Both the position numbers and the translations under genes were made by a program. From a phage, in assembly GCA_037431425.1 (NCBI GenBank), contig GCA_037431425.1_4129.1: a stretch of DNA of 64,000 nucleotides. The stretch is one strand, 5' to 3'. The notes beneath the pieces were generated by a model that saw only the letters and a list, made by a program, of their open reading frames with translations, was not told the origin of the DNA and made no database searches. Shown piece after piece: positions 6,671 to 22,617 of the stretch. The number at the start of each line of letters is the position of its first letter. Within the stretch, counting starts at the first letter, position 1.

Positions 6671-6839
<169 letters not shown>

Positions 6840-9649: not shown

Positions 9650-9833
<184 letters not shown>

Positions 9834-9913
9834 TAAATAATACAGTAAGATGGCCTCCCCTCCATATCATGAGAGTATAGAGACTTGTTGGTTATCTTAC
9901 TTTTAAACAAACT

Positions 9914-9987: not shown

Positions 9988-10004
9988 CAAAATAAAGGCA
10001 CACT

Positions 10005-10421
10005 ATGACATACAATATTGTTAAAATGGTGAACTATGTATTAAAAAACAACTCATGGTCACTGCATGATGTACAATTAGAAGATATTGGTGAAGTTAGA
10101 GTATTTTGCTATGATGACGATTTGAACGAAACCACTGATTTGAGTAAATGTTTTAATATTTTTCTTGGTTATGAAATCAATAATCATTTTTATTCATTTG
10201 ATGTGTATTTTGAACGAGTTAAAATCAGAATTGCTAATGTAAATAGTGATTATTATGACACTAGAATTGAATTGAATTTTGATGATATAGATACTGAAGA
10301 AAAATTCTTTCAGTACTGTCTCGTAAACGATCTAAATGGATTGACATTTGAGGACATTAAAGCTATACTTAAAGTTCAAAGATTGATACCAGAAGAGGTT
10401 CTAAATCCCTTTAATGACTAG
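10005..10421 (+). CDS. EE-x-FQ-x-ST motif family protein, 138 aa
   Basis: motif TEEKFFQYCLVNDLNGLTFEDI. Confidence 0.75.
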   Translation: MTYNIVKMVNYVLKNNSWSLHDVQLEDIGEVRVFCYDDDLNETTDLSKCFNIFLGYEINNHFYSFDVYFERVKIRIANVNSDYYDTRIELNFDDIDTEEKFFQYCLVNDLNGLTFEDIKAILKVQRLIPEEVLNPFND

Positions 10422-10779
10422 TTTAATAACTCGTATAATGCAAGATGTTCGTAAGAATCTTTATACTGGTAATTTTGATGATCCTAACATAAAAATATTA
10501 TGTTATGATGGATTCACACTGGTACATCCATCAGAATCTAATAATATATACATAGCATATACTTCTCCTAATCTTTTGTATCAATTTGATTTATATAGTA
10601 CATTAGCGAAAGTAATCTTAGATGTTTCAAAGGAGCCAATTTTTATAGCAGTACGTGATATTGAGTACACAGAAGAATCATTATTCCAGTACTCAACGAT
10701 AAATGACATTGGTGGGTTGACATTGGATGAGGTTAATGCTATAATAGCAGTCTCACGTTTGATTGATACTCACAATTAG
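10414..10779 (+). CDS. EE-x-FQ-x-ST motif family protein, 121 aa
   Basis: motif TEESLFQYSTINDIGGLTLDEV; overlaps upstream gene by 8 nt. Confidence 0.75.
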   Translation: MTSLITRIMQDVRKNLYTGNFDDPNIKILCYDGFTLVHPSESNNIYIAYTSPNLLYQFDLYSTLAKVILDVSKEPIFIAVRDIEYTEESLFQYSTINDIGGLTLDEVNAIIAVSRLIDTHN

Positions 10780-10788
10780 GAGATTCAT

Positions 10789-10980
10789 ATGTTCTGGAAT
10801 TTATTATGCTTGTTTGGTCGTACATTAGTTCTTGCAATTATTCATACACCTGGCATTCGTAATTATGTTTCTTATGAATTTAAGAAAAATTATCACAACA
10901 ATACTGAAGATCGTGCAACTAAGATGTGCAAAGACTTCAATGTAGATGTTCCACCATTCAAGAAGTACGAGGATGAATAA
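10789..10980 (+). CDS. hypothetical protein, 63 aa
   Basis: AGGAG SD; hydrophobic N-terminus. Confidence 0.6.
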   Translation: MFWNLLCLFGRTLVLAIIHTPGIRNYVSYEFKKNYHNNTEDRATKMCKDFNVDVPPFKKYEDE

Positions 10981-11264
10981 TGGAATTTATTGTTGCACCT
11001 GATGAACTAAAAACATTCACGTTCCGAGACAATAACAATTATCCTTATACAAATCATTCATTGAATTCATTACATGTTATTTCAATCATTGCATCTGAAT
11101 ACAGAGACAATCCATGTATTGATTTTAAAACCACTGATGGTGAATATACATGGGTGATCCCAAAAGATAAATATAGTTATCAAGGGGCAGTAGAAATTCG
11201 CGACTCGATTCTACAGCAAATTGAAGATGGACATACTCATCCTAAACTAAACATTCAGTACTGA
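10980..11264 (+). CDS. hypothetical protein, 94 aa
   Basis: TAATG coupling. Confidence 0.7.
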   Translation: MEFIVAPDELKTFTFRDNNNYPYTNHSLNSLHVISIIASEYRDNPCIDFKTTDGEYTWVIPKDKYSYQGAVEIRDSILQQIEDGHTHPKLNIQY

Positions 11265-11381
11265 AATCGCTTATCAGAATAACTTCTAATAATAATTATT
11301 TTTCTCTACTATCTAACAGTATTTTACAAGAATTCTGTATTTTTGAAGTTGATTTTTGAACTTCTTATATGTTATACTTAC

Positions 11382-11411
11382 GGCTGATTCAATTATGAAT
11401 CAGCCTTTTTT
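11382..11411 (+). terminator. rho-independent terminator
   Basis: GGCTGATTC..GAATCAGCC stem plus T6. Confidence 0.75.
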
Positions 11412-11429
11412 CTTATGAGGATTAATATA

Positions 11430-11846
11430 ATGAACAGAGAAGTTATTAGTTTAATGGATGAGTATATAAACCAAACGCATCGTTTGATATTTTTAAATGA
11501 ATTCGAGTCCAGAACAACGTATCATTCTGGAGAATATGAGATAACGACTGGATCATTTCTGAACGGATATATGGAGTTTTTTGAACAAAGCGATAATGTT
11601 TTTATTTCCATATCTGAAAAACATGGTGATGGTTGTGTTATTGATGTATGGCCCAATAAAGTAGAGATTGATACTTCACACAAAATTGTAATTGATGTAG
11701 ACGAATCATTATATGATTTAACTGAAGATATGTATATGCAGCTAAATTTTGTATATGACCTAACTAATATAAGTTATTGTAATTTAAGTAAATTATTTTA
11801 TATTTGTGGTGTATTACATAATAATACACAACAAAATAAAGGATAA
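11430..11846 (+). CDS. divergent member of EE-x-FQ family, 138 aa
   Basis: GAGGA SD favours ATG 11430; motif TEDMYMQLNFVYDLTNISY. Confidence 0.65.
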   Translation: MNREVISLMDEYINQTHRLIFLNEFESRTTYHSGEYEITTGSFLNGYMEFFEQSDNVFISISEKHGDGCVIDVWPNKVEIDTSHKIVIDVDESLYDLTEDMYMQLNFVYDLTNISYCNLSKLFYICGVLHNNTQQNKG

Positions 11847-11854
11847 ACATTTAA

Positions 11855-12259
11855 ATGTTGAAAATTCCACAACAGGCATTATCTATACTAATTGAAAATG
11901 GTGTAATATTTTCTGAAGGATGTAGTTCATTCTATACATGTGATGTGGACCAGTACACATTTGAATACCGTTCATTTAAAAATACATTGAGTGTTTCGTG
12001 TGAAGCTTCTGACAACATTGTACTTGTTGTTTCTTTCTATGGTGTACCAAAATTCTTCATTGATATATATTATGATTCTTTTAAGATACAAACATACGAC
12101 CATTTTCTTGGTGAAGTGCTCTTGCAAATGCCAATTGAACATGTTACTATAAATGAAGATATGTTCTTTCAGCTATCTACGGTATATGATATGTGTGGTT
12201 TGACATTTGACAACATTAATGGTATTTTTGAAATTGCCAGAACCCTACGAGGAAGATGA
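11855..12259 (+). CDS. EE-x-FQ-x-ST motif family protein, 134 aa
   Basis: motif NEDMFFQLSTVYDMCGLTFDNI. Confidence 0.75.
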   Translation: MLKIPQQALSILIENGVIFSEGCSSFYTCDVDQYTFEYRSFKNTLSVSCEASDNIVLVVSFYGVPKFFIDIYYDSFKIQTYDHFLGEVLLQMPIEHVTINEDMFFQLSTVYDMCGLTFDNINGIFEIARTLRGR

Positions 12260-12260
12260 T

Positions 12261-12668
12261 ATGGTCAAAATTTTAAGTGACAATACAGTTGATATTGTTA
12301 TTGATGTACTTGAAAACAGTAATACATTTGAGAAGAAACACAGTACTGTATACTTCGGTAAAGATTGTTGGCTGAACTATACATCTGATAGTTCATTTAT
12401 AATTCATGTTGAAAAGGGTGATATTGGATTAACGATACATGCTTCCTATAATAAAACAATCACTGTTATTGCCAACAAGCCAAGTTCTTCTGATTTCTGG
12501 GATATTATTGATGATTGTGATCATTTCATGTCAACATTCTATAAAACAGAAGAAGAACATTTCATGGATAGTACTGTTCGAGAATTACAAATTCCATTTA
12601 AATTAATGAAAGCGGCAAGGGATTTTATTTCAAAATACAAAAAAACAGGAGTATGTGATGCAATTTAA
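12261..12668 (+). CDS. EE-x-F-x-ST motif family protein, 135 aa
   Basis: track ORF trimmed to ATG 12261, 1 nt after upstream stop; motif TEEEHFMDSTV. Confidence 0.7.
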   Translation: MVKILSDNTVDIVIDVLENSNTFEKKHSTVYFGKDCWLNYTSDSSFIIHVEKGDIGLTIHASYNKTITVIANKPSSSDFWDIIDDCDHFMSTFYKTEEEHFMDSTVRELQIPFKLMKAARDFISKYKKTGVCDAI

Positions 12669-13119
12669 TGGTAATGTTTCTAAAGTTGCTTTAGTATTTG
12701 AAAATTGTGAGTGTGTGTATATTGATGTAAAGGATGTTTTATGGATGCATATTGGTGATGAGAAGACACTTTGTAGTCGTTTTTCGAATGGACTGACAAT
12801 TAGTACTGGTATTGGTGAGTTTGGAATTGCGTTACGTAGTAATACTCCAGCGGATTTTATGGACAATACCACACTGTTGGAACGTTTAAAAATGCGTGAC
12901 GTTACACATGTTTATCTATATGATAATCAAGACGTAGAACGTCATTATGTTGTTGAATGGGCTGATTATAACATGAATGGGCAATATTCCGTAAACCAGC
13001 GTGTACAAATTACACCAGGTGGTAATATTGTATTTGTTAGTACAACAGGTAAATTAATCAACGTAGATGATAAAAATATCGATCTATTTACGTCATACGA
13101 TAGTTATAATTTGAGGTGA
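12658..13119 (+). CDS. hypothetical protein, 153 aa
   Basis: AGGAG SD 6 nt upstream of ATG 12658 (track used GTG 12655). Confidence 0.75.
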   Translation: MQFNGNVSKVALVFENCECVYIDVKDVLWMHIGDEKTLCSRFSNGLTISTGIGEFGIALRSNTPADFMDNTTLLERLKMRDVTHVYLYDNQDVERHYVVEWADYNMNGQYSVNQRVQITPGGNIVFVSTTGKLINVDDKNIDLFTSYDSYNLR

Positions 13120-13123
13120 TATT

Positions 13124-13486
13124 ATGAACTTGTGGATATTTACACTTATTTGTTGTATTACTATTGTACTTTGTCGTCTAATTCATGTATACTCATATCA
13201 TAAAGCGTTACGTATTGAGCAAGAGACTTACTTAAAAAAACAGCCACCGAAGAAGTTACCATCACCGTATGGGTTGAAACGTGAAATGCACTCCAAAAGC
13301 AAAGAGTGGGGATATGCAATCACAAAAAATGGGTATATTTACACAGCGAGTAATGGTTATTTTCAAATTCACCACAAATTAGAGGTAGCAGTTAAGATTT
13401 TGTGGGAAATGGAGGATATTGGTGGTTATGAGCGTACTAAGTTTGAATACATATCAGATGATCCAGGAACTTCGCGAGAAACATGA
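13124..13486 (+). CDS. membrane-anchored protein, 120 aa
   Basis: GAGGTGA SD; N-terminal TM (LWIFTLICCITIVLC). Confidence 0.75.
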   Translation: MNLWIFTLICCITIVLCRLIHVYSYHKALRIEQETYLKKQPPKKLPSPYGLKREMHSKSKEWGYAITKNGYIYTASNGYFQIHHKLEVAVKILWEMEDIGGYERTKFEYISDDPGTSRET

Positions 13487-13520
13487 TATAATTATCGATG
13501 TTGAGAAGAAGGAAGTTGTT

Positions 13521-13631
13521 ATGAAAAAGCAAGAATATCGCATATTAGATAACTTCCGTCTAAAATCATTTATAATGAAGTTCTGTACAGATGAACATCT
13601 TACTGGACGAGCAATACGTAAGGAGTTGTAA
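13521..13631 (+). CDS. possible small protein, 36 aa
   Basis: AAGGAAG SD before ATG 13521; the longer track ORF overlaps the previous gene. Confidence 0.35.
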   Translation: MKKQEYRILDNFRLKSFIMKFCTDEHLTGRAIRKEL

Positions 13632-13632
13632 A

Positions 13633-13974
13633 ATGAACTTAAGTTCAACAATTCAGTTTTTGAGCAATAACTTTGATAGGATCATATCTCGCGGTGGGAT
13701 GATTGTACATCCAGATACAGACGAAATGTATATCATTGGATTTGATAAAAATTCTTATGATCAAGTGCTTGTAATTTCAAAGTTAGAAAGTTATAATGAA
13801 GTCGTTCAGTTTTGTTGTACCGAATTTGGTATATACATTAAAGATGCTGAAACAAATACGATTTCACATTATTTTTATCACACACTGATGGGTACTAAAG
13901 ACTTCGGATTAAAGTTTGATGATTTAGTACAATGTCATTATATGTTTAAAACCTTCCCTGTTAGTGGACACTAA
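13633..13974 (+). CDS. hypothetical protein, 113 aa (distant EE-FQ family?)
   Basis: AAGGAG SD before ATG 13633; C-terminal GLKFDDL resembles the family tail. Confidence 0.65.
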   Translation: MNLSSTIQFLSNNFDRIISRGGMIVHPDTDEMYIIGFDKNSYDQVLVISKLESYNEVVQFCCTEFGIYIKDAETNTISHYFYHTLMGTKDFGLKFDDLVQCHYMFKTFPVSGH

Positions 13975-13988
13975 GGAGTGTATCAAAT

Positions 13989-14774
13989 ATGAACAACATT
14001 TTCTTCAAAACTATTTCTTTCAAAAAAGAATCTTACTCATATTCCTATGTTGATGGTAATGTGCTTAATATTGTTCTGAATGGGGTAGATGTTCCTGTGA
14101 AATTCGACTCACATGAAGAAGCAGTCGATGGGGCAAAAGAATTGAATTCAATTCTCAATGGTGAAGATAGTCAAAAACAAAAGGTAAAATCCGATTTAGA
14201 TGCACTTTTGGAAAAAATCAAAAGTGGTGAAGTTCTTGAAATTTTAGAAAACTGTAATGAAAAACTACGTAAAGTAGTCAATGATGTTCATGACCAGATT
14301 CAAGAAAAAGCACTAGACCAAGCCTTTAAACATGTATCTAAAAAAGCTGAATCACGTATTGATAATATGGTCAAAAACATTGATGATGTACTTTCACATC
14401 TCTTTACCAAAGAATACGAATGTAACACAGACGAGCCAGTTACTGAATCTAAAAAAGAAAAACGCAACTTTGGTTCAAGTGATGATGTATTTGGTTTTTC
14501 TAATGTACGAACAAGTGCAGATGAACCAAAGGAAATCAGTGAGATGCTCATTGGTGACATGACAACAAAACAACTTCGTAATGAAATTGACAAGTTTGTT
14601 ACTACATCTATCAAATCTGAACGTGCACAAAATATGTTCAAAAGTATCAGTGCTAATTTTGGTACTGAAGCCACCGAACAAGCACTAAATGCATTTAAAG
14701 AATTGATTTATAATGTTGCCATTCGCAATCCAGAAAAAACACTCGAAGAAGTCCTACGAGAAAATTTCAAATAA
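13989..14774 (+). CDS. charged helical protein, 261 aa
   Basis: AAGGAG SD; K/E/D-rich; followed by bidirectional terminator. Confidence 0.8.
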   Translation: MNNIFFKTISFKKESYSYSYVDGNVLNIVLNGVDVPVKFDSHEEAVDGAKELNSILNGEDSQKQKVKSDLDALLEKIKSGEVLEILENCNEKLRKVVNDVHDQIQEKALDQAFKHVSKKAESRIDNMVKNIDDVLSHLFTKEYECNTDEPVTESKKEKRNFGSSDDVFGFSNVRTSADEPKEISEMLIGDMTTKQLRNEIDKFVTTSIKSERAQNMFKSISANFGTEATEQALNAFKELIYNVAIRNPEKTLEEVLRENFK

Positions 14775-14787
14775 TTAGATAAAAGTA

Positions 14788-14816
14788 AAGCCACTACTTT
14801 CGTAGTGGCTTTTTTA
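14788..14816. terminator. bidirectional rho-independent terminator between convergent genes
   Basis: AAAGCCACTAC-TTTC-GTAGTGGCTTT flanked by an A-run and a T-run. Confidence 0.8.
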
Positions 14817-15971
14817 TTATGCGTTATAACCAACAATAACGACAGTACAATCAATTGGATTTACTACTTTAACAGTTACGTTATCATCTTCATCAAACTG
14901 TATTTCGCTATGAACTACCTGTTTGGTTGAAGAATACAATTGAACTTGTGGTAATACTTTACCATGTTCAGTAACTGGAATAGATAGTGAATACATAGAG
15001 TCTTCATCTTCTACCCAATCACTCTCCACATATTCCTTATGGAATGGGGTGGTGTGTAGTGTTTTGCCCATAATACGCAAAGACACAGGCGAATTATCGC
15101 TTTGGTTCACTGTAATATCACCTTTATCATCAACAGACATATCAACACCTATTTGGTGTAAATCATCGCTATATGCTTGGAGAACTAATTTATTACCACG
15201 TTTATGAACATCATATGGTACGACCGCAGAAAAAACTCCATCACCTGATGGTTGGAATTGCGTCAATTGAACCGGAGTAACATAATCAACATCCTCGCCG
15301 TGTTCTTGAACATCAAATTCAACAACTTTAGTGTTATAATATGGGGAAGTTAATGTGGCAGTACCTTTGCCTTTTTGTTGAATAGCATCTACTTGAATCG
15401 TAAACTCATCATCAACAATTTGTTTAGTGACGTATTCTTTCCCTTCTGGTAATACAAATTTAATTTCCATGCCATTGGTATCAATTTCAGAACCAGCATT
15501 GAATAGTTTACCACTAATTGATTTATCACCAACAAATACTGGTGAAATAATAATATTATCAATATCCCTATCAATAATACTACATTCTGGGGTATACATA
15601 TTATAAAGAGATTTTGAATTTCCTAAAATAGTTTTGTGTAGTAGGAATTTATAAACAAATCCAGTATCTGCCTCTTGCTGCTCATTAGTGTGTCCACGAA
15701 CAAAGAAACTGTTTCTATTAATTTCACTTAATAGTTCATCATTAGATTTACTATAATTTAGCAGATAACCTTTATTATCTTTAGTTGTTAGTTGGACTTT
15801 ACGGTAAATTATATTAGTTCTTGGGTCAACCAAATCATATAATTTGTGACTTCTCTGACGATAGATTCTAATATTTTTAAGTTTAGTTCCGTCATTAAGT
15901 ATCGCTCCATCAACGACATAACCACATTCGCCAAACTTGTATCTACCTGCTGACGCTATAGACCTTGACAT
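14817..15971 (-). CDS. hypothetical protein, 384 aa (beta-rich, possibly structural)
   Basis: lone minus-strand gene in a plus-strand block; AAGGAAGG SD; own upstream TATAAT. Confidence 0.8.
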   Translation of the reverse strand: MSRSIASAGRYKFGECGYVVDGAILNDGTKLKNIRIYRQRSHKLYDLVDPRTNIIYRKVQLTTKDNKGYLLNYSKSNDELLSEINRNSFFVRGHTNEQQEADTGFVYKFLLHKTILGNSKSLYNMYTPECSIIDRDIDNIIISPVFVGDKSISGKLFNAGSEIDTNGMEIKFVLPEGKEYVTKQIVDDEFTIQVDAIQQKGKGTATLTSPYYNTKVVEFDVQEHGEDVDYVTPVQLTQFQPSGDGVFSAVVPYDVHKRGNKLVLQAYSDDLHQIGVDMSVDDKGDITVNQSDNSPVSLRIMGKTLHTTPFHKEYVESDWVEDEDSMYSLSIPVTEHGKVLPQVQLYSSTKQVVHSEIQFDEDDNVTVKVVNPIDCTVVIVGYNA

Positions 15972-16029
15972 TTATCCTTCCTTTGTTATAATTATTATAA
16001 CATATTTATTGTATAGATTAAAAAAATGA

Positions 16030-16058
16030 TTGACACGTGTAAGAAAAACTGATACTAT
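16030..16058 (+). promoter_or_regulatory. promoter TTGACA-N17-TACTAT
   Basis: read directly in divergent intergenic region. Confidence 0.55.
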
Positions 16059-16088
16059 AACATTTAATTATTAAGTGAGGATTTTTGT

Positions 16089-16673
16089 ATGAATGTTATT
16101 GAAGATAGATTAGTACTGAAAAATGGAAAAATGACTGTTAAGTTATATAAAGACGAAGCTGATTCATTCATGGCAAAAGCTATTGAAAAATCAGAACGAT
16201 ATAAATTATTAGCACCTGCTAGTAAATCACCGTATGGTTTTAATCATGCCCATAGTCATTTTGTAGGAATGGTTTGTGAACATGCATCTTTAGTTCTTTT
16301 TAATGAAATTGAAAATAATACTGGTATTAAACTTAATATTGATCCTGCATTTCAAAATGATGCACGCGATGGGGAGTGTGATATTAAGGTAAACAACCTT
16401 CGTATAGAAGTAAAAGGTATTAAGTATAAATCATGGACCGACTTTGGACCGTGTGTCAGCACTCGACAGTTGAAAAATATCCAAAAAAAAGCTGACGTAA
16501 TACTATGGGTATTGTATAATGAGAAAAAACAAGAGTTCACGTTTGAGGGTTTCAACTATGTGAAAGATATTAGTTCTATCCCAGTTGTGCTCACGGGTGT
16601 CCCAGGGCGACCAATGATTGAAAATCATCCAGTACTGAGTATTATCAAACCACTTCAGGAGTTACCGTTATGA
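16089..16673 (+). CDS. PD-(D/E)XK-type nuclease-like protein, 194 aa
   Basis: GECDIKVNNLRIEVKG matches the D..(D/E)xK restriction-endonuclease-fold signature; motif level only. Confidence 0.55.
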   Translation: MNVIEDRLVLKNGKMTVKLYKDEADSFMAKAIEKSERYKLLAPASKSPYGFNHAHSHFVGMVCEHASLVLFNEIENNTGIKLNIDPAFQNDARDGECDIKVNNLRIEVKGIKYKSWTDFGPCVSTRQLKNIQKKADVILWVLYNEKKQEFTFEGFNYVKDISSIPVVLTGVPGRPMIENHPVLSIIKPLQELPL

Positions 16674-16897
16674 TTACAGCCACTGTATACCAAGATATCA
16701 ATGAAGAGTTTAATTCCAAAATTGCATTTTTACAATTCCCAGTTATCCCACCAGTTGGGGCAACATTAAATCTAACCATTTGTGGGTTTGAAAAATATTA
16801 CGAAATTCTAGATATTGAGTACTGTGCTGATGTGTATTCATGTAATAGTGAATTTGCCATTCCGGTATCAATCGATATTATCGTTAAAGAGGTTTAA
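16670..16897 (+). CDS. hypothetical protein, 75 aa
   Basis: ATGA coupling. Confidence 0.65.
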   Translation: MITATVYQDINEEFNSKIAFLQFPVIPPVGATLNLTICGFEKYYEILDIEYCADVYSCNSEFAIPVSIDIIVKEV

Positions 16898-16900
16898 AAT

Positions 16901-17356
16901 ATGTTTAAAAATTTTATTGTTATTGTAGCAGTACTGTTTGGTGCATCATGTTTTATTACACCAGTACATGCAGAAGAACAACGTCAAACTATTAAAACTA
17001 TTGGTACTGGTAAAACACCACCTAAACGTACTGCGGAAGAATACATGCCGGAAATCCGTGAGCGTTATCGCCAGACATACAGGGAAAAACATGCAAATGA
17101 CAAACCAATCAAAAAGCACAAATGGGAAGTAGTTAAATCCCCTTCATTTTGTGCTGGTTATGCGAAGGTAAAGGTTGAACAACACAACAACCAGTACTAT
17201 AAGGATATGTATTACTTCTATGACTCCAGAATTTCTGACACTGATTTGATGGCAGGGAAGGTTGATAAAGAAGAATTTCTTCAAGGTTATGATATGATGG
17301 ACGATGCTAAGATCATGGAGTGTGTAGATGTGTATGAAAAATATAGAGGGTTCTAA
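16901..17356 (+). CDS. secreted protein, 151 aa
   Basis: signal-peptide-like N-terminus (FIVIVAVLFGASCFITPVHA/EE). Confidence 0.75.
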   Translation: MFKNFIVIVAVLFGASCFITPVHAEEQRQTIKTIGTGKTPPKRTAEEYMPEIRERYRQTYREKHANDKPIKKHKWEVVKSPSFCAGYAKVKVEQHNNQYYKDMYYFYDSRISDTDLMAGKVDKEEFLQGYDMMDDAKIMECVDVYEKYRGF

Positions 17357-17817
17357 TGATACTACTAGTATTATTATCAAGCCCGTTTGCTTATTTTATT
17401 CTGTATAATATTTTTAGTAATGCTCATCATTTTAAATACGCACAAACAATTGCAAAACATGAAGGATGGTGGCATTTTTTTCCAGCACTACTGTGTTCAT
17501 ATATGTTCAATGAACGCTATTTTATTTTTCCAGAATATACAAAGTACTATTATGATACTAAAATAAATGGCATAATTGAGTACTGTCTACGTAATTATCT
17601 GAACAATACAGATAATGTTAAAGTGAATTTATTAAATGGAAATTCACCAAGAATAGTCTTTACATCTTACATAGAAGACCCCATTTACTTATATCTATAT
17701 GATTATAGTATTTCGGTTCGTTGTTCTATGCGTAGTAGTTGTGAGTACTTTATCTTACTACCTACACAAATAAGATTAATAGAAAAATACTTGAAATTGA
17801 TTGACAAAAAAGATTAG
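17356..17817 (+). CDS. membrane-anchored protein, 153 aa
   Basis: TAATG coupling; N-terminal TM. Confidence 0.7.
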   Translation: MILLVLLSSPFAYFILYNIFSNAHHFKYAQTIAKHEGWWHFFPALLCSYMFNERYFIFPEYTKYYYDTKINGIIEYCLRNYLNNTDNVKVNLLNGNSPRIVFTSYIEDPIYLYLYDYSISVRCSMRSSCEYFILLPTQIRLIEKYLKLIDKKD

Positions 17818-17829
17818 TAGGGTTATAAT
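17801..17829 (+). promoter_or_regulatory. promoter TTGACA-N17-TATAAT
   Basis: consensus hexamers overlapping the end of the upstream CDS. Confidence 0.6.
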
Positions 17830-17861
17830 CATAAGACTAACCGACAAAAGAGGAACTGAAA

Positions 17862-18320
17862 ATGGACGTATTGGCTACCAATTTCAAACGTAACACAGAA
17901 GAGCGTGAAGGATACCTTAGTATTAGCGATGTAGTTGATGATAACTTCAAACAATACATTTTTAATAGTGCGATTAAGTTAAAATGCACAAAGGATGCAC
18001 CAGACCGTAGTTTTACTAAATGGATTGCATATTGGGAAGATTCACCAATTGCAATTGAAATGACAGTTATTACAACAGTTCTGGAAACGGGATATATCAA
18101 AGCTATTGTAGTTGATAAGAAAGTCAGATCTCTTGATGAAATTAACCCATATCCAGCCCGAAATTCTAAAGTTTTTGGGTTTTTGGTTGAAGGTAAGTTT
18201 ATGATTGAAAAAGATGCAAAAGAATATGTAATTAATATGCTACAAACACCAACCGAGAAAAAAAAGGTCGTTGACCAGAATGCTATTGATTCCATCAAGA
18301 AAGCATGGGGACTTAAGTAA
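17862..18320 (+). CDS. hypothetical protein, 152 aa
   Basis: AGAGGA SD; the mirror ORF on the minus strand is rejected. Confidence 0.75.
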   Translation: MDVLATNFKRNTEEREGYLSISDVVDDNFKQYIFNSAIKLKCTKDAPDRSFTKWIAYWEDSPIAIEMTVITTVLETGYIKAIVVDKKVRSLDEINPYPARNSKVFGFLVEGKFMIEKDAKEYVINMLQTPTEKKKVVDQNAIDSIKKAWGLK

Positions 18321-18321
18321 C

Positions 18322-18744
18322 ATGTTCACACTAAGTAATACAAAATATCTTTTTCTTATTAGTATTATTGGTTGGGTTATGGCTCCAGTGCTTAATGCAC
18401 TGGGGATTCCAGAGGAACACAAACTTGTCAATATTTCAGGTTTAATCCAAGCTATTTCGTGGTATTCATTAATCATATTTTTTGTGTGTATTAACACATT
18501 TGCACGCGAGTATCGACGCTTACTTTATTTTAAAGTTTTCGGAACCACATACTATAGTTTTCTTTATACATTTATTTTAGTTCCATGTGTAGTATATGCC
18601 TTTGTTTTTGATTACTATACATATATGTGGGTGTGTAGTACAATGTTTGTTATGTTAGAATATACAAGAACTATTCAAAACTCATATGCAGAAGAGTTTC
18701 ATGATCAAGAAGTCAAACGCAAATTAACGGAGCTAAACAAATGA
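18322..18744 (+). CDS. polytopic membrane protein, 140 aa
   Basis: track ORF trimmed to ATG 18322; several hydrophobic helices. Confidence 0.7.
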   Translation: MFTLSNTKYLFLISIIGWVMAPVLNALGIPEEHKLVNISGLIQAISWYSLIIFFVCINTFAREYRRLLYFKVFGTTYYSFLYTFILVPCVVYAFVFDYYTYMWVCSTMFVMLEYTRTIQNSYAEEFHDQEVKRKLTELNK

Positions 18745-19166
18745 GAGTATATAATAAAATTTGTATTTTTGTATTTTTAGTTTGTGCGTTCAATTCCTTT
18801 GGCTACTACTGCAACGAAAACAATATTTCATATGGATTAAATCCTTTGTGGTTTTCAATTTCAAATGTAGCTCAAACTGGTATTGCTATTATGTCTGCCC
18901 TTATGTTCTTTCCAATAGTTACGATGGATACTGATTATGAAAGGCTTGGATTTATCCGTGATACTGGTGACGAACCTTACAGTAGATTGATTGTGTTGTA
19001 TCCATTTATTGTTATATTAGGTACTAATATCCAACTTGGGTCTTTATCTAATAGTCTTACTTCAGCAGTCATTACCATCTTTGCATTCATATTTTTTATG
19101 GTACACAAATCAGTACTTAAATGGCACATCACTCAATTGGCAGAGAAGGGTACAGAAATCAGTTGA
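18741..19166 (+). CDS. polytopic membrane protein, 141 aa
   Basis: ATGA coupling; hydrophobic helices. Confidence 0.7.
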   Translation: MRVYNKICIFVFLVCAFNSFGYYCNENNISYGLNPLWFSISNVAQTGIAIMSALMFFPIVTMDTDYERLGFIRDTGDEPYSRLIVLYPFIVILGTNIQLGSLSNSLTSAVITIFAFIFFMVHKSVLKWHITQLAEKGTEIS

Positions 19167-19191
19167 CGTGATGTATCGAGTCATATATAAT
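19163..19191 (+). promoter_or_regulatory. promoter TTGACG-N17-TATAAT
   Basis: upstream stop TGA sits inside the -35. Confidence 0.6.
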
Positions 19192-19225
19192 TATTACATC
19201 AAAACGATCAAATGGTAAGGAACTT

Positions 19226-19477
19226 ATGAACATTGATAAGGTCAAAGAACTTAGTGCAGCACTAATTAAGAACGAAGAAGTATGTGAAGAACTTCGCAGT
19301 ACTATCAAAGTGGAGTATGCACGTCTTCAAGCTATGCTTCAGGAGTCAGAATGGGTTGTAACGAAATCTATCGAATCCATCTATAAGGATATCGAATCTC
19401 TTTTTAACAAGAAAAGTAAAATCGAATCTGATTCATATAACAAACGCAAAGAATTAAATTCAGTACTTGGAATCTAA
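19226..19477 (+). CDS. coiled-coil-like protein, 83 aa
   Basis: AAGGA SD. Confidence 0.7.
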   Translation: MNIDKVKELSAALIKNEEVCEELRSTIKVEYARLQAMLQESEWVVTKSIESIYKDIESLFNKKSKIESDSYNKRKELNSVLGI

Positions 19478-19487
19478 AAAAAAGTAT

Positions 19488-19516
19488 TTGACATAAAACA
19501 AAATATGGAGTACAGT
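19488..19516 (+). promoter_or_regulatory. promoter TTGACA-N17-TACAGT
   Basis: overlaps hairpin ATATGGAG..CTCCATAT. Confidence 0.4.
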
Positions 19517-19554
19517 GTGCTCCATATTTAATTATAAGATAAAAGGAAACCGTT

Positions 19555-19824
19555 ATGAAATCTATTCTCGTTGCAGTTAACCAGATTGCTTCTCCATCTT
19601 TCAACTTCAAACAAGCTGTTGCTGATAAATTGAAGAAAATCTGCCCCAACGCTGAATTAACGTTCTGTGTGTTTGATTCTGAAAAAGTATCAACGGTTGA
19701 TCTAAACTATATCATCAACGACATTAAAAGCATTTCAGGCGAAAGTAATTTAAACTTACTAAATGAGATTGCTGATGATTATGATCATACACTAGTAATT
19801 TCGGAGAAATATTCAATCAAATGA
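19555..19824 (+). CDS. hypothetical protein, 89 aa
   Basis: AAGGA SD. Confidence 0.7.
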   Translation: MKSILVAVNQIASPSFNFKQAVADKLKKICPNAELTFCVFDSEKVSTVDLNYIINDIKSISGESNLNLLNEIADDYDHTLVISEKYSIK

Positions 19825-20240
19825 TTAGATTACTTCAGTACTTAATCATTAAATTTTTTGGCTGTCATACAATTGAAGGAAAAGCTACACTTGCACATAA
19901 AATTTTTGTAGCATTGTGTACAGGTGATTATGACGTATTGAATAAGTACTGTAAATCTCAAGCATGTATTGATATAATGGCACTTCGTATCTATGAGTGT
20001 CAATTCAATAGATATAATTTTTACCAGTACAGATATGATAAACAAGAATTTGATAGTTTTGGAATGTTAAAAAATTTATGCAACAATAAAAAGAATATGC
20101 ATATATCTGAATTTATTGCTTTGTATTTTTATTTAAAAAGTTCATTGTTCATGAACACGAGTCAACTTTTTGATACTAGATTTAATGCATTCAAAGGTGA
20201 AGAATTTTACATATATAATAAATTCTTAGATAAGGTTTAA
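19821..20240 (+). CDS. hypothetical protein, 139 aa
   Basis: ATGA coupling. Confidence 0.7.
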   Translation: MIRLLQYLIIKFFGCHTIEGKATLAHKIFVALCTGDYDVLNKYCKSQACIDIMALRIYECQFNRYNFYQYRYDKQEFDSFGMLKNLCNNKKNMHISEFIALYFYLKSSLFMNTSQLFDTRFNAFKGEEFYIYNKFLDKV

Positions 20241-20241
20241 T

Positions 20242-20739
20242 ATGACAACAGTTTACATTGATAAACGATTAAATTTATTGATTACTGATTCTAGAGTTAC
20301 ATTAACCATACCACGAAACTTATTTGGTATTTTCCCACTAAAACCAAAATATCAATATGAAGTTGTTAATCAAAAAACTTTATATGTACATGACCGTTTA
20401 TTCAGTGCTAGTGGGACAATAAGTGAAATTGATAAAGTACTGAATTGGTTAATTAACAAAGAACCTGTTATACCGCACAAAAAACTAGGTTGTCATTGTG
20501 TTCTACTATCCAAAGATTATATCATTCACATGAATATATCTAATGGTAAGTTCACTAAGAAACTTCAATATCTTCATGAAGACTATACATTCTTTATGGG
20601 AAGTGGTGGAGAGTATATGGTAGATGCAGCAATACATGAAGACACTACGACTTTATGTAATAAAGTTTTTAGTACATTCATGGACGTTCATAACCATGAT
20701 TCTTTTACAGATAGTAATATTAATGTGTATAAATTTTAA
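20242..20739 (+). CDS. HslV/proteasome-beta-like Ntn-hydrolase (Thr protease), 165 aa
   Basis: MTT N-terminus (Thr nucleophile after Met removal); KTLYVHDRLFSASGT aligns with HslV KVRRLYNDKVIAGFAGGT; FMGSGGEYMVDAA aligns with IGSGGPYAQAAA. Confidence 0.6.
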   Translation: MTTVYIDKRLNLLITDSRVTLTIPRNLFGIFPLKPKYQYEVVNQKTLYVHDRLFSASGTISEIDKVLNWLINKEPVIPHKKLGCHCVLLSKDYIIHMNISNGKFTKKLQYLHEDYTFFMGSGGEYMVDAAIHEDTTTLCNKVFSTFMDVHNHDSFTDSNINVYKF

Positions 20740-20760: not shown

Positions 20761-21726
20761 GTGAAAAAACTTGATTTGAATACAATTGCAGATGAAGTTC
20801 TGGATGAATGCTTTGGTAATGAAGAAGTGAATACGCTGGATGCGTTAGAACCAGTTCAAGAAAAAGATAACATTGACGAGAAAAATAATGGTAATTTCAA
20901 GTTTAATATTAGTCTTAAGCGACCAGCAAATGTAACAAATGAAGATATTATTCGTGATATTCAAGCAGGTATTAACGTAAAGAAAAATACTGAACTATTA
21001 GTTCGTTATAATTACGGTTTGATTATTGATGTTGCAAGTAAATGCACGTGTTATATTCCATTTGAAGATAAGATTTCATATGGCATTGAGGGATTCATGC
21101 GAGCATTAAAAACATTTGACCTTAGTAAGAATGTAAAGTTCGCTACGTATGCATCGTCAAGTATCTATATGACTGTATACAATGAAAGCTCAGATGCTAA
21201 TCATCTGGTCCACTTCCCTCGTTACATGAGTGTTAATAAGATACAAGTGAAACGCTTCTGTCATAATTATGAGCGTCAGCATGGTTGTCGTCCTACACCT
21301 GAAATTATTTCTGAAGAGACTGGTATTGAAATCCAGCACGTTAAGAATTGTTTATTATTCCAAAGTGAATATACTTCACTGGATGCACCATTGGATGGTG
21401 TTTCTGATGGGACGATGAGTGATATTCTGCATTCATCTGAAGGTGATTATAATCTTAATGTTGACAGTATTCGTGCACCGTTGCGTTATACCATCAACGA
21501 ACTAACTAATGAGTTGAGTGCTAAGGAATGTGAGATTATTCAACGTGTTCATGGATTAGGTGAATTTAATCCTGAAACACTACGTGAAATTGCTGATAGT
21601 GGTTTTATTGATGACAATGGTAAGTGTGTAAAATCCAGATCTTCGGTTCATCGTAAATACAGTGATGCTCTTAAGAAACTCAAGAAATTAGTGCTCGCTA
21701 AAGGGTACGAATACGAAGATTTCTAA
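20761..21726 (+). CDS. sigma-70 family RNA polymerase sigma factor, 321 aa
   Basis: GTG start with GGAGA SD; region 2 (YGIEGFMRALKTFDLSKNVKFATYASSSIYMTV), region 3 and region 4 (TLREIAD..VHRKYSDALKKLK) recognisable. Confidence 0.8.
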   Translation: MKKLDLNTIADEVLDECFGNEEVNTLDALEPVQEKDNIDEKNNGNFKFNISLKRPANVTNEDIIRDIQAGINVKKNTELLVRYNYGLIIDVASKCTCYIPFEDKISYGIEGFMRALKTFDLSKNVKFATYASSSIYMTVYNESSDANHLVHFPRYMSVNKIQVKRFCHNYERQHGCRPTPEIISEETGIEIQHVKNCLLFQSEYTSLDAPLDGVSDGTMSDILHSSEGDYNLNVDSIRAPLRYTINELTNELSAKECEIIQRVHGLGEFNPETLREIADSGFIDDNGKCVKSRSSVHRKYSDALKKLKKLVLAKGYEYEDF

Positions 21727-21731
21727 ATTGT

Positions 21732-21758
21732 AAAGGTTGGCATATGCCAACCTTTTTT
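21732..21758 (+). terminator. rho-independent terminator
   Basis: GGTTGGCA-TA-TGCCAACC plus T6. Confidence 0.8.
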
Positions 21759-21761
21759 ATT

Positions 21762-21789
21762 GGGACACAGAATAAATATATGATATAAT
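21762..21789 (+). promoter_or_regulatory. promoter GGGACA-N16-TATAAT (same architecture as tRNA promoter at 6115)
   Basis: read directly; ..TGATATAAT as at 6131-6142. Confidence 0.5.
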
Positions 21790-21795
21790 AATTAT

Positions 21796-22248
21796 GTACA
21801 ATCCTGTTGAATGCAGAAATGCATATAAATTAGAACCTGATCCTATCGAAAACGTAGATGGCAGATGAGCAGTTCAGCAGTGCGATGAGCAGAAGAAACC
21901 CGTCAGAAGTGGGCATAGTTTGAACCCCTCACGGCAATGCGGCTCAATAAAGAACTCCGATAAGCATACAGAGAGTTCCTAGATAGACATATAAGGAATC
22001 ACACCTTACCAGATTTGCTAAGGGAGTCTTGAAATAAGACAGCTTGAGCTTTGATTGTATAGAGTTTCAAGTGAGTGCTGGGATGAAAAGACCAGTGACC
22101 GTTGCATATGACCGTGATAGGGAGAAACAGAGCAACCCGCTTCCGTTTGTGATTGATCATTTTAACAATATAGATCCGTCCAAAATTCACGATACAATAA
22201 TATCCGATGCCATCAGCGTCAAGAAGAGACTTAATTGTCTCTTTTTTA
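21796..22248 (+). ncRNA. candidate large structured RNA of about 450 nt, class unknown
   Basis: promoter-to-terminator unit (AGAGAC-TTAATT-GTCTCT plus T6 at 22225-22248); higher GC than flanks; only two mutually antisense, alt-start, SD-less ORFs. Confidence 0.4.
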
Positions 22249-22314
22249 TTACTTTCATTCCCCTGTGGGGGGATGAAATAGTCCTCAACAAATCCCGTCA
22301 AGTATTAAAAGTCC

Positions 22315-22343
22315 TAGACAGTTATGAAACATTCGCGTATAAT
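22315..22343 (+). promoter_or_regulatory. promoter TAGACA-N17-TATAAT
   Basis: read directly upstream of gene 22408. Confidence 0.5.
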
Positions 22344-22407
22344 ACGTAGTATTAGAAGCGAACAGACATCTCGAAGAGATGGATGATTAACTATTAAGGA
22401 ATATCCA

Positions 22408-22617
22408 ATGAATTCAATCATATTTTTAGTAGTAGCTTTCTCTGTTAATTCCGGTGTACAAATAACCCCAATGAATTCCATGAATCAATGTATAGCAGTT
22501 CGTGATAGTACATACGAACAAGTAAACAAAAATATTAGAATGACAGTTAGTAAAGAACAAATGTGGTGTTACAATAGTAATACTAACGCAAAGCTTATTG
22601 TAGGACAAACTCAATGA
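22408..22617 (+). CDS. small secreted protein, 69 aa
   Basis: AAGGA SD; signal-like N-terminus. Confidence 0.6.
   Translation: MNSIIFLVVAFSVNSGVQITPMNSMNQCIAVRDSTYEQVNKNIRMTVSKEQMWCYNSNTNAKLIVGQTQ

What the first reader, a model, noticed from the sequence alone, without database searches (positions are those of the whole stretch)
21762..22248. ORF-poor, GC-elevated 450-nt promoter-to-terminator unit downstream of the sigma factor: candidate large structured RNA
This unit lies between the sigma-gene terminator and the next promoter. A GGGACA-N16-TATAAT promoter, of the same architecture as the tRNA promoter at 6115, is followed by about 450 nt. That stretch ends in a clean terminator (AGAGAC-TTAATT-GTCTCT plus T6).

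The only ORFs are two mutually antisense 100-codon frames. The minus-strand one uses TTG, neither has a convincing SD, and the plus-strand one reads through the terminator. Composition is visibly GC-richer than the surrounding genes, as is typical for structured RNAs in AT-rich genomes. An internal duplicated GATGAGCAG motif and several local hairpins are present. I could not assign it to any RNA class by eye.
Basis: inference. Interest (0 to 1): 0.65.

Follow-up and report, generated by a model that had tools for sequence, protein, structure and literature searches.

The report
New large structured RNA in jumbo phages
The flagged stretch encodes a roughly 450-nucleotide, intricately folded non-coding RNA of an undescribed family, present in 3-5 copies in every RaK2-like jumbo phage and singly in small mobile islands of enterobacterial chromosomes; its function is unknown.

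Summary

**What is there.** Window 21762-22248 holds a GGGACA-N16-TATAAT promoter, about 450 nt with no credible ORF, and an intrinsic terminator. It belongs to a family found at about 300 places in 73 RaK2-like jumbo phage genomes, 3-5 copies each. Single copies also sit in small integrative islands of Enterobacterales.

**Evidence for structure.**
- I aligned 54 distinct members, with mean pairwise identity 66%.
- My model has 112 pairs in 25 helices, including four pseudoknots, and 86.6% of cells are paired.
- Column shuffles give 71.8% paired, and sliding the partner columns gives 38-44%.
- 82 pairs show changes on both sides.
- There is no codon periodicity, and most indels are not multiples of three.

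**Not a known family.** No Rfam 15 family matches, and my literature searches found no description.

**Extent.** The conserved unit runs past the terminator, which a third of members lack. It continues through a 3' hairpin with an invariant GGGGGAU, a tail, and a second structured module up to about 22383.

**Function.** This is not established. Most likely it is an abundant, stand-alone, trans-acting RNA. Origin-primer, cis-leader and decoy roles remain open.

The parts
21762..21789 (+). Promoter: -35-like GGGACA, 16-nt spacer, TG-extended -10 TATAAT. It is the same type as the tRNA-cluster promoter at 6115.
   Evidence: An equivalent TG(G/A)(G/A)AC(A/G)-N16-17-TATAAT precedes almost all phage copies. 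A promoter with a TGAAACG -35 was described for CBB and GAP32 (PMC5259590).
21796..22220 (+). Core of the structured RNA, from the predicted start to the last core hairpin GAUGC-CAUCA-GCGUC. It holds about 20 helices and many invariant unpaired blocks, such as GAAAAYGUAGA, CACGGCAAUGCGGC, GAUAGACAUAUAAGG, UAAGGGAG, GACCGUUGC and GAGAAACAGAGCAACCCGCUU.
   Evidence: Conservation starts at about 21798. Helices and covariation are, invariant columns. The 5' end is inferred, not mapped.
22054..22060 (+). Pseudoknot A, 5' strand AUUGUAU. It is the apical loop of the hairpin at about 22042-22072 and pairs with 22192-22198.
   Evidence: helix 17: 99.5% paired, and all 7 pairs change on both sides (for example CG 29/UA 25, GC 35/AU 19).
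22192..22198 (+). Pseudoknot A, 3' strand AUACAAU.
   Evidence: helix 17.
22101..22105 (+). Pseudoknot B, 5' strand GUUGC. It pairs with GCAAC (22132-22136) inside the 15-nt loop of the GGGAG/CUUCC hairpin.
   Evidence: helix 19: 100% paired, 4 of 5 pairs change on both sides.
21963..21966 (+). Pseudoknot C, 5' strand AGCA. It lies in the loop of the GAACUC/GAGUUC hairpin and pairs with UGCU at 22016-22019.
   Evidence: helix 11: 76.9% paired, 3 of 4 pairs change on both sides. This is weaker than A and B.
22221..22247 (+). Intrinsic terminator (stem AGAGAC/GUCUCU, loop UUAAUU, T run). It is an optional insertion, absent from 18 of 54 members.
   Evidence: The stem covaries (AGAGAC/GUCUCU, AGAUCC/GGGUCU, AGUACAC/GUGUACU): helix 24, 90.9% paired.
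22256..22275 (+). Post-terminator 3' hairpin CAUUCCCC-UGUG-GGGGGAUG. The G5 run followed by U is invariant in all 54 members and the intervening A in 53. The C-rich strand varies on one side only.
   Evidence: helix 25: 87.9% paired, 6 of 8 pairs vary on one side only.
22276..22302 (+). Conserved tail AAAUAGUCCUCAACAAAUCCCGUCAAG. It could pair with the invariant GGGA of UAAGGGAG at about 22023-22026.
   Evidence: The GGGA/UCYC pairing is 94% canonical but has no change on both sides, so it is inconclusive.
22332..22383 (+). Module 2: outer stem UUCGC/GCGAA, hairpin UAAUAC-GUA-GUAUUA, then hairpin ACAUCUC-GAAG-AGAUGG. It overlaps the predicted sigma-70 promoter TAGACA-N17-TATAAT (22315-22343) and ends 25 nt before the ATG at 22408.
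   Evidence: Equivalent modules follow nearly all phage and bacterial copies, with visibly compensated stems (GACAUUC/GAAUGGC, GACAAUC/GAUUGGC, GGUUCGCUU/AGCGAGAC, GGAACAUC/GAUGUUCC). Promoter scan. I read the covariation from the alignment and did not test it formally.

Best explanation
This is a stand-alone gene for a large, compactly folded non-coding RNA of a previously undescribed family.

**Shown**
- It belongs to an ancient multi-copy family: 3-5 paralogues per RaK2-like jumbo phage genome, and one copy per small integrative island in Enterobacterales.
- Selection acts on RNA base pairing on the plus strand, including at least two strongly supported pseudoknots.
- About 80 positions are invariant across 54 members, many of them unpaired.
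- No protein is encoded.

**Inferred**
- Host RNA polymerase starts at about 21796 from a promoter of the type that also drives the phage tRNA cluster.
- Transcription either stops at the intrinsic terminator, giving an RNA of about 450 nt, or reads on. Where the terminator is absent it must read on. The longer isoform of about 590 nt in this window carries the 3' hairpin, the tail and module 2.
- The RNA accumulates to high levels, because several strongly promoted gene copies contribute.
- It acts in trans as an RNA-only assembly, a ribonucleoprotein or a ribozyme. Its target would be a component shared by all hosts or supplied by the host, because phages and islands share no neighbouring protein.

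I rate a trans-acting stable RNA as the most likely mode, at about 0.55-0.6. Its biochemical activity is unknown.
For: - **Distribution:** 73 phage records, 302 places, 3-5 per genome. TH47 has four dispersed copies in one orientation.
- **Structure:** 54 distinct members at 66% mean identity. My 112-pair model is 86.6% paired, against 71.8% shuffled and 38-44% slid. 82 pairs change on both sides. The covariation score is 0.397, against 0.151.
- **Pseudoknots:** A is 99.5% paired with 7 of 7 pairs changing on both sides. B is 100% paired with 4 of 5 pairs changing on both sides.
- **Strand:** G-U cells 7.6%, A-C cells 3.1%.
- **Not coding:** no period-3 signal, and indels are mostly not multiples of three.
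- **Stand-alone status:** the copy next to Endonuclease VII is syntenic across at least five phage groups. Genes on both sides of it lie on the opposite strand.
- **Ancient paralogues:** four positional classes are each conserved across GAP32, CBB, Serratia BF and Yersinia Yen9-04.
- **Island copies:** they are full length and have their own extended -10 promoter.
- **No shared protein neighbour** between islands and phage.
- **Shared promoter type** with the tRNA genes.
- **No Rfam family**, and PGAP annotates nothing there in E. coli.
- **Precedents:** large abundant ncRNAs of unknown function are reported in PA5oct (PMC7318152) and in ICP1 (PMC7567579).
Against: - I could consult no expression data for any member, so the transcript, its ends and its abundance are all inferred.
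- The conserved unit continues past the terminator and abuts the next ORF in the co-directional copies. That is also what a cis-acting leader would look like.
- Several helices score poorly on the unfitted alignment: the 5' hairpin 59%, the outer stem of the 22042-22072 hairpin 53%, and the last core hairpin 36%. I attribute this to register shifts in variable regions, but did not prove it.
- The sequences are related, so the shuffle control overstates significance. The slid-partner control is the fairer one.
Confidence: 0.85

Rival explanations
1. It is a replication-origin or primer RNA. Each copy would be an origin where a promoter-driven, folded transcript forms an R-loop and primes leading-strand synthesis, as at T4 oriF/oriG or with ColE1 RNA II. 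Island copies would let the island be replicated by the host or a helper replisome.
For: - T4 uses at least five dispersed origins. oriF and oriG are a middle promoter plus an A+T-rich unwinding element, and the transcript serves as the primer (PMC3016281).
- Here there are 4-5 dispersed copies per genome.
- An invariant G run is followed by an A+T-rich stretch after the core.
- One paralogue sits at a switch of transcription direction and near the minimum of cumulative GC skew.
- One paralogue lies next to an rI.-1 homologue in Asteriusvirus and RaK2. T4 oriC is near rI.-1.
- Two ParB/RepB-like genes flank the Serratia fonticola island copy.
Against: - T4 origin R-loops need no specific sequence, and T4 origins share no motif. 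That does not explain about 20 covarying helices, pseudoknots and about 80 invariant positions.
- In two thirds of members a terminator lies upstream of the G run.
- GC skew shows no inflection at copies A, C or D.
- The rI.-1 neighbour is absent from the GAP32-type loci.
Confidence: 0.12
2. It is a cis-acting leader: a giant 5' untranslated region that controls the downstream genes by attenuation at the terminator, or that makes RNA polymerase terminator-resistant, as HK022 put or EAR elements do.
For: - Promoter, structured RNA, a terminator (where present) and further conserved hairpins run up to the next ORF's ribosome-binding site in the co-directional copies A, C and D and in the 30k and 335k classes.
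- The terminator is optional, as expected for a tunable attenuator.
Against: - The copy next to Endonuclease VII has no co-directional downstream gene in any genus examined except XaC1. It runs into a bidirectional terminator and convergent late genes.
- Downstream genes are unrelated between paralogues and between islands.
- Known antitermination RNAs are about 70-120 nt, not 450 nt or more with pseudoknots (my own knowledge).
Confidence: 0.1
3. It is a conflict RNA: a decoy, sponge, antidote or helper-satellite signal. Either the phage copies neutralise a host or island defence, or the island copy mimics a phage RNA to interfere with, or respond to, jumbo phage infection.
For: - The same RNA occurs in virulent jumbo phages and in integrative islands of their host clade.
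- The islands have an integrase, a CI-like S24 repressor and a Ner-like regulator. At least one carries a Kiwa defence system (KwaA E = 3.6e-74, KwaB E = 2.4e-100).
- High gene dosage in the phages fits a stoichiometric role.
- Precedent: phages escape ToxIN by encoding pseudo-ToxI RNA (my own knowledge).
Against: - No toxin or partner gene is conserved next to the RNA.
- There are no tandem repeats of the type III antitoxin kind.
- PADLOC found nothing for the proteins closest to the RNA.
- The four paralogue classes are anciently diverged, which a simple decoy does not require.
Confidence: 0.15
4. It is a DNA-level repeat (recombination, packaging or protein-binding site, or a non-autonomous mobile element), or a real or decayed protein gene.
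For: - It is multi-copy with about 84% identity between Asteriusvirus copies A and B, which suggests gene conversion.
- One record annotates part of it as a repeat_region.
- A CGUCA(A)G motif is repeated directly either side of the terminator and 3' hairpin.
- Two ORFs of about 100 codons exist.
Against: - Compensatory changes preserve RNA pairing, including G-U pairs that are strand-specific.
- The positional classes are stable across genera, so the element is not recently mobile.
- There are no terminal inverted repeats or tandem repeats.
- There is no period-3 conservation, and frameshifting indels are common.
Confidence: 0.03

Closest known systems
GOLLD and ROOL RNAs (large 'ornate' non-coding RNAs of phages and prophages)
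   Same: - The RNA is large, at 450 nt or more and possibly about 600-700 nt with the 3' modules.
- It has many helices and pseudoknots, and highly conserved unpaired nucleotides.
- It is carried by phages and mobile elements.
- It is linked to tRNA genes. Here that link is a shared promoter type. For GOLLD and ROOL it is physical adjacency (PMC7567579).
- Its function is unknown.
- A loop-to-single-strand pairing (pseudoknot A) could in principle form between molecules, as in the GOLLD/ROOL homo-oligomers (PMC12286853, listed).
   Different: - cmscan finds no match to either family.
- The hosts differ: enterobacterial and Xanthomonas jumbo myoviruses and enterobacterial islands.
- There are 3-5 diverged paralogues per genome.
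- Oligomerisation is untested.
PA5oct 'putative lncRNA' ncRNA001-004 (Pseudomonas jumbo phage related to the RaK2 group)
   Same: - Four ORF-less, actively transcribed regions lie in a related jumbo phage.
- One is 451 nt long.
- Two each account for up to about 5% of phage reads (PMC7318152; annotated in MK797984).
   Different: nhmmer with filters off finds no sequence similarity between ncRNA002 and this family, and none of the six hallmark motifs I checked is present. I did not test structural homology. ncRNA001, 003 and 004 were not examined.
ICP1 ~800-nt ncRNA and the PLE satellite IIR transcript
   Same: A lytic phage and its satellite each produce abundant non-coding transcripts of unknown function (PMC7567579). 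That parallels the phage-plus-island distribution seen here.
   Different: The ICP1 and PLE RNAs are not reported to be homologous to each other. Here the phage and island RNAs are clear homologues (E = 1e-72 to 1e-101). I made no sequence comparison with ICP1 or PLE.
ColE1 RNA II and T4 origin transcripts
   Same: - A promoter-driven non-coding transcript of about 500 nt precedes a G-rich then A+T-rich segment.
- There are several dispersed copies, like T4's five origins.
   Different: - No antisense regulator, RNase H site or origin activity is shown.
- Structural conservation far exceeds what T4 R-loop origins need.
HK022 put and EAR processive-antitermination RNAs
   Same: A structured RNA sits just downstream of a promoter, followed by a terminator and long co-directional gene arrays.
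   Different: - It is five to six times larger.
- One paralogue and the island copies have no operon downstream.
- No put or EAR match was found in Rfam.

Membership tests
Any Rfam 15 family (including GOLLD, ROOL, HEARO, OLE, raiA, group I/II introns, RNase P, tmRNA, 6S, small ribozymes) | A covariance-model score at or above the family's gathering threshold | tested here: not met
   No hit in the region at gathering threshold. At E <= 10 on 21650-22420 the best hits are terminator-like sRNA models on the sigma-gene terminator and the rest are chance-level, with no known large-RNA, intron or ribozyme family. Six other loci at gathering threshold and four at E <= 1 gave nothing for the element. 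ARAGORN found no tmRNA or tRNA there.
Structured non-coding RNA (generic) | Base pairs maintained by compensatory substitutions across homologues | tested here: met
   86.6% paired against 71.8% shuffled (0 of 500 reach it) and 38-44% slid. 82 of 112 pairs change on both sides. The alignment was not fitted to the structure.
Structured non-coding RNA (generic) | Absence of coding signal (period-3 conservation, frame-preserving indels) | tested here: met
   variability is flat across codon positions, with 121 non-triplet and 57 triplet deletions.
Structured non-coding RNA (generic) | A stable transcript with defined ends | not testable with these tools
   Only promoter and terminator predictions are available. 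I found no RNA-seq study of a RaK2-like enterobacterial phage.
Type III toxin-antitoxin (ToxIN-like) antitoxin RNA | Tandem repeats of the antitoxin unit, followed by a terminator and a toxin gene | tested here: not met
   There are no tandem repeats. No conserved downstream ORF exists in phage paralogues or islands.
Riboswitch or cis-regulatory leader | A conserved association with a downstream gene or gene class | tested here: not met
   Downstream genes differ between paralogues and islands. The copy next to Endonuclease VII faces convergent genes in every genus examined except XaC1.
T4-type R-loop origin or ColE1-type primer RNA | Replication initiates at the locus, with an RNA-DNA hybrid and RNase H processing | not testable with these tools
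   Only circumstantial features are available: copy number, a G run followed by an A+T-rich stretch, and position.
Group I or group II intron | Interrupts a host gene whose exons can be joined, and has the canonical core (P3-P8/P7, or domain V) | tested here: not met
   The element is intergenic with its own promoter in all copies. There is no Rfam intron hit.

The most novel reading that the evidence does not exclude
This may be a new class of large catalytic or self-assembling RNA, either a ribozyme or an RNA-only or ribonucleoprotein machine. It would be shared by virulent jumbo phages, at four sub-functionalised paralogues per genome, and by integrative islands that carry defence systems in the same hosts. 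In that reading it mediates a phage-host or helper-satellite interaction through RNA rather than protein.
Probability: 0.3. Interest if true: 0.9.

Novelty: new variant of a known kind. Interest (0 to 1): 0.8.

Why it matters
Only about a dozen classes of large, complex-folded bacterial or phage RNAs are known. Each has either turned out to be a ribozyme or ribonucleoprotein core, or remains a prominent open problem (OLE, GOLLD, ROOL, raiA).

- **Tractability.** This family infects E. coli, Salmonella, Klebsiella and Erwinia, all hosts with good genetics. That makes it easier to study than most of the others.
- **Scale of conservation.** It is kept in 3-5 copies in every RaK2-like jumbo phage examined. 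These phages are being developed for therapy and biocontrol, yet their annotations leave these loci blank or fill them with spurious small ORFs.
- **Shared between enemies.** Homologues occur in a virulent phage lineage and in defence-carrying chromosomal islands. That hints at an RNA-level link between phages and mobile islands that has not been described.
- **Practical gain.** Even with function unknown, a covariance model for this family would correct the annotation of several hundred loci.

Tried and rejected
- **Known RNA families.** Four Rfam scans (gathering and E-value modes, on the window and ten other loci) gave no relevant hit.
- **Protein-coding or decayed gene.** Rejected on the lack of period-3 signal and on indel lengths.
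- **Second copy in the window.** None found by blastn or nhmmer.
- **Homology to PA5oct ncRNA002.** nhmmer --max and motif searches were negative.
- **Shared protein partner between islands and phage.** tblastn of all island ORFs against the TH47 genome and the window found only a DUF4326 protein from one island.
- **GC-skew evidence for origins.** Uninformative, because skew follows gene orientation.
- **Plasmid carriage.** No match in PLSDB.
- **Tandem repeats.** None.
- **Pairing of the 3' tail with the invariant GGGA.** Compatible but not covarying, so left open.
- **Hammerhead-like reading of CAGAUGAG...CGAA.** Rejected. The position equivalent to U4 is A, some members have GUUGAG, and no Rfam hammerhead hit appears.
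- **CsrA-sponge idea.** Rejected, because the GGA-containing loops are not conserved between genera.
- **'Concerted evolution' of all paralogues.** Only partly true. It holds for Asteriusvirus copies A-C, but Mimasvirus and Eneladusvirus keep four old positional classes.
- **Prior description.** None found in five targeted literature searches. A bulk catalogue of viral RNA motifs (PMC10690425) was not inspected and could list it anonymously.
Full report
**1.

The window is from an Asteriusvirus jumbo phage. It is 99.3% identical to Escherichia phage ph0011 across the region. The sigma-factor gene (20761-21726) ends in a terminator at 21732-21755.

- **Promoter.** GGGACA-N16-TATAAT lies at 21762-21789, with TG before the -10.
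- **Terminator.** A hairpin plus T run lies at 22221-22247.
- **ORFs.** The only ORFs between them are two mutually antisense TTG ORFs of 100 and 101 codons and a 34-codon TTG ORF nested in the minus-strand one. The plus-strand ORF reads through the terminator.
- **Composition.** G+C rises to 0.41-0.435, from about 0.30-0.39 in the flanks.
- **Folding energy.** The predicted fold of 21796-22247 beats all 100 dinucleotide shuffles, z = -3.0.
- **Promoter type.** GGGAC[A/G]-N16-GATATAAT occurs four times in 64 kb. The CBB genome paper described a related promoter class with a TGAAACG -35 in CBB and GAP32 (PMC5259590).

**2. It is a multi-copy family**

- **Phage records.** blastn against 50,697 phage records finds the element in 73 records at 302 places, 3-5 per genome. 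All are RaK2-like jumbo phages: Asteriusvirus, Mimasvirus, Eneladusvirus, Alcyoneusvirus, Salmonella 7t3/Munch and Xanthomonas XbC2/XaC1.
- **Annotation.** Most records annotate nothing there, or only very short hypothetical ORFs.
- **This window.** It contains one copy.
- **A whole genome.** I reassembled phage TH47 from eight fetched pieces. It has four copies, at 49 kb, 146 kb (the orthologue of the window copy), 262 kb and 346 kb. All lie in one orientation.
- **Syntenic paralogue.** One copy lies between the Endonuclease VII gene and a baseplate-hub gene, both on the opposite strand. This arrangement holds in Asteriusvirus, 7t3, CBB, Serratia BF and XaC1, though XaC1 has two plus-strand ORFs between the RNA and the hub gene. 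The unit therefore does not depend on neighbouring genes for its orientation.
- **Paralogue classes.** In Mimasvirus and Eneladusvirus four positional classes (about 30 kb, 174 kb, 260 kb and 335 kb) each cluster across genera. The duplications are therefore old. In Asteriusvirus, copies A to C are partly homogenised and D is distinct.

**3. It also lives in bacterial chromosomes**

A degenerate 20-mer from the most conserved block retrieved full-length homologues from eight bacterial assemblies, with nhmmer E-values of 1e-72 to 1e-101:

- Citrobacter amalonaticus
- Silvania hatchlandensis
- the complete Serratia fonticola chromosome
- Serratia sp. 2723
- Enterobacteriaceae RIT714
- three MAGs (Buttiauxella, an uncultured Enterobacteriaceae, and a small contig binned as Clostridium)

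The context is consistent across them.

- **Neighbours.** The RNA sits beside a large serine recombinase or a tyrosine integrase at the edge of a small island, usually with a CI-like HTH/S24 repressor nearby.
- **E. coli.** Only 2 of 5,426 complete genomes carry it. In strain LR-29-1 it lies in an island of about 10 kb inserted next to ffs, and PGAP annotates nothing at the RNA.
- **Metagenomes.** A stricter pattern returned 53 metagenome loci, all true members. About 40 are in jumbo-phage contexts and about 10 in island contexts.
- **Cargo.** One island also carries a Ner-like regulator and a Kiwa defence system.
- **Absences.** The RNA is absent from PLSDB plasmids. In the phage collection, an island copy matches the same set of RaK2-like jumbo phage genera and nothing else.
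- **No shared protein.** Islands and phage share no protein neighbour, apart from a DUF4326 protein in one island.

**4. It is an RNA, and a complicated one**

I collected 54 distinct full-length members with mean pairwise identity 66%. An APC-corrected mutual-information screen, followed by helix extension, defined the pairs. I then counted them on an independent MAFFT alignment that was not fitted to any structure (A1).

| Measure | Observed | Column shuffles | Partners slid 1-3 columns |
|---|---|---|---|
| Cells paired | 86.6% | 71.8% (0 of 500 reach observed) | 38-44% |
| Pairs changing on both sides | 82 of 112 | mean 62 | 36-44 |
| Covariation score | 0.397 | 0.151 | 0.06-0.12 |

Individual elements in the same count:

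- **Strong helices.** Thirteen of the 25 helices are at least 94% paired.
- **Pseudoknot A** (22054-22060 with 22192-22198): 99.5% paired, and all seven pairs change on both sides.
- **Pseudoknot B** (22101-22105 with 22132-22136): 100% paired.
- **A three-pair tertiary helix** (21937-21939 with 21988-21990): 98.8% paired.
- **Pseudoknot C and a 5'-end-to-loop pairing:** weaker, at 77% and 85%.
- **Poor scorers.** Helices in variable-length regions score poorly on this alignment. I put that down to register shifts but did not prove it.

Other evidence agrees.

- About 80 columns are invariant and about 70 more are at least 90% conserved. Many lie in unpaired segments.
- G-U cells (7.6%) outnumber A-C cells (3.1%), which points to the plus strand.
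- There is no codon periodicity, and deletions are mostly not multiples of three.

**5. The unit is longer than the finding**

Eighteen of the 54 members lack the intrinsic terminator. Where present, it is an insertion between the last core hairpin and a further hairpin. The conserved sequence then continues:

- **3' hairpin.** In the GGGGGAU of its 3' strand, the G5 run and the U are invariant in all members and the A in 53 of 54. In the window it lies at 22256-22275.
- **Tail.** CAAAUCYCGUCA(A)G, running to 22302.
- **Small hairpin.** Many members then have a short hairpin with a UGUUAAA loop.
- **Module 2.** An outer stem, a hairpin with a GAAC-GNAGUGA-like apex, and a final hairpin with a GNRA-like loop.

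The stems of module 2 differ between members in a visibly compensated way, and bacterial copies have the module too. In the window it lies at 22332-22383. Two isoforms are therefore plausible, one of about 450 nt and one of about 590 nt in this window. A pairing between the tail and the invariant GGGA of UAAGGGAG is compatible with the data (94% canonical) but does not covary.

**6. What it is not**

- **Known RNA families.** No Rfam 15 family reaches threshold in the window or in ten other loci. Permissive scans give only terminator-like sRNA hits.
- **tRNA or tmRNA.** ARAGORN finds none at the locus.
- **Type III antitoxin.** There are no tandem repeats.
- **PA5oct lncRNA.** The 451-nt RNA of the related jumbo phage PA5oct was detected by RNA-seq at up to about 5% of phage reads (PMC7318152). 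It shows no sequence similarity to this family.
- **Prior description.** Five targeted literature searches found none.

**7. How it most likely works**

What is shown: selection acts on a complex plus-strand RNA fold. The family is old, multi-copy, independently promoted, and shared by phages and islands with no common protein neighbour.

What is inferred: the RNA is transcribed from the tRNA-type promoter, reaches high levels through gene dosage, and acts in trans. It could work as an RNA-only assembly, a ribonucleoprotein or a ribozyme, on something that all hosts provide. I put about 0.85 on 'functional structured RNA gene' and about 0.55-0.6 on the trans-acting mode.

The rivals:

- **Origin or primer RNA, about 0.12.**
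  - For: T4 has at least five dispersed R-loop origins built from a promoter plus an unwinding element (PMC3016281).
  - For: here a G run is followed by an A+T-rich stretch, one paralogue sits at a strand switch, and one lies beside an rI.-1 homologue.
  - Against: T4 R-loops need no specific sequence, and most copies have a terminator before the G run.
- **Cis leader or antiterminator, about 0.10.** The convergent Endonuclease VII paralogue and the unrelated downstream genes argue against it.
- **Conflict RNA (decoy, antidote or helper-satellite signal), about 0.15.** The shared distribution and the defence cargo of the islands make this attractive, but no partner gene is conserved.
- **DNA repeat or coding gene, about 0.03.** The covariation, the G-U excess over A-C and the frameshifting indels largely exclude it.

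**8. Novelty and verdict**

This is a new family within a known and rare kind: large ornate non-coding RNAs of phages and mobile elements, such as GOLLD and ROOL. Three features set it apart. It has four old paralogue classes per genome, it occurs in virulent jumbo phages and in integrative islands of their hosts, and it is found in experimentally easy enterobacterial systems. Function is the open question, and infection transcriptomics, structure probing and multi-copy deletion can address it directly.

Noticed in passing
window 60942-62350: A fourth promoter of the same type (GGGACG-N16-GATATAAT, 60942-60969) precedes about 1.4 kb with no ORF of 50 aa or more on either strand, apart from a 62-aa GTG ORF. 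The stretch also holds a TTGACA-N17-TATAAT promoter and repeated CAGTACTG palindromes. It is 84-93% conserved and mostly unannotated in Asteriusviruses. Short pieces match the first kilobase or so of several related phage records, so it may be a genome-end, packaging or regulatory region, or another non-coding RNA.
   Followed up: partly
window 6345-6831: Three consecutive 54-codon ORFs lie directly after the tRNA-Ser/tRNA-Arg pair. All begin MTHEEWM, and the first two share MTHEEWMNDINFRY. They look like a tandem triplication of a small gene.
   Followed up: no
TH47 (MT446416) about 146.6-147.2 kb, upstream of the orthologous RNA copy; also downstream of TH47 copy C: In TH47 a 210-aa ORF (MKLVYGFGINDVKGD...) is inserted between the sigma gene and the RNA, replacing the promoter seen in the window. 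A similar 213-aa ORF lies downstream of copy C. They look like homing-endonuclease-type insertions that target the intergenic space around these RNA genes. I ran no domain search on them.
   Followed up: no
L198 (metagenome contig ERZ773156.17-NODE-17), locus 13083-14625 when oriented with the RNA on the plus strand: An RNA-bearing island carries a complete Kiwa defence system (KwaB E = 2.4e-100, KwaA E = 3.6e-74), together with a serine recombinase, a CI-like repressor, a Ner-like regulator and an invertase.
   Followed up: partly
L192 (E. coli LR-29-1, NZ_AP027515) locus about 9800-20400: An island of about 10 kb is inserted next to the 4.5S RNA gene ffs. It contains the RNA homologue, an IS3-disrupted tyrosine recombinase, and DUF4326, DUF488 and dual-OB genes. 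The DUF4326 protein is 40% identical to a TH47 phage protein.
   Followed up: partly
L031 6876-7811 (Serratia phage BF); also L020 and the annotated XbC2_348 in L036: In several genera the '260 kb' paralogue of the RNA is followed directly, or one ORF further on, by an ADP-ribosylglycohydrolase gene.
   Followed up: no
window 21703-21764: The sigma-gene terminator gives a sub-threshold Rfam hit to Salmonella sRNA STnc390 (28.6 bits against a gathering score of 50). This is a generic terminator resemblance, not a gene.
   Followed up: yes
within the family: the variable hairpins at window 22150-22186 and, in other members, inside the stem at window about 22026-22041: A sub-domain of about 35-45 nt, containing GUACAAUAUAGAUCCGUC, appears as an optional insertion at two different positions of the RNA in different paralogues. 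This suggests modular evolution of the fold.
   Followed up: no
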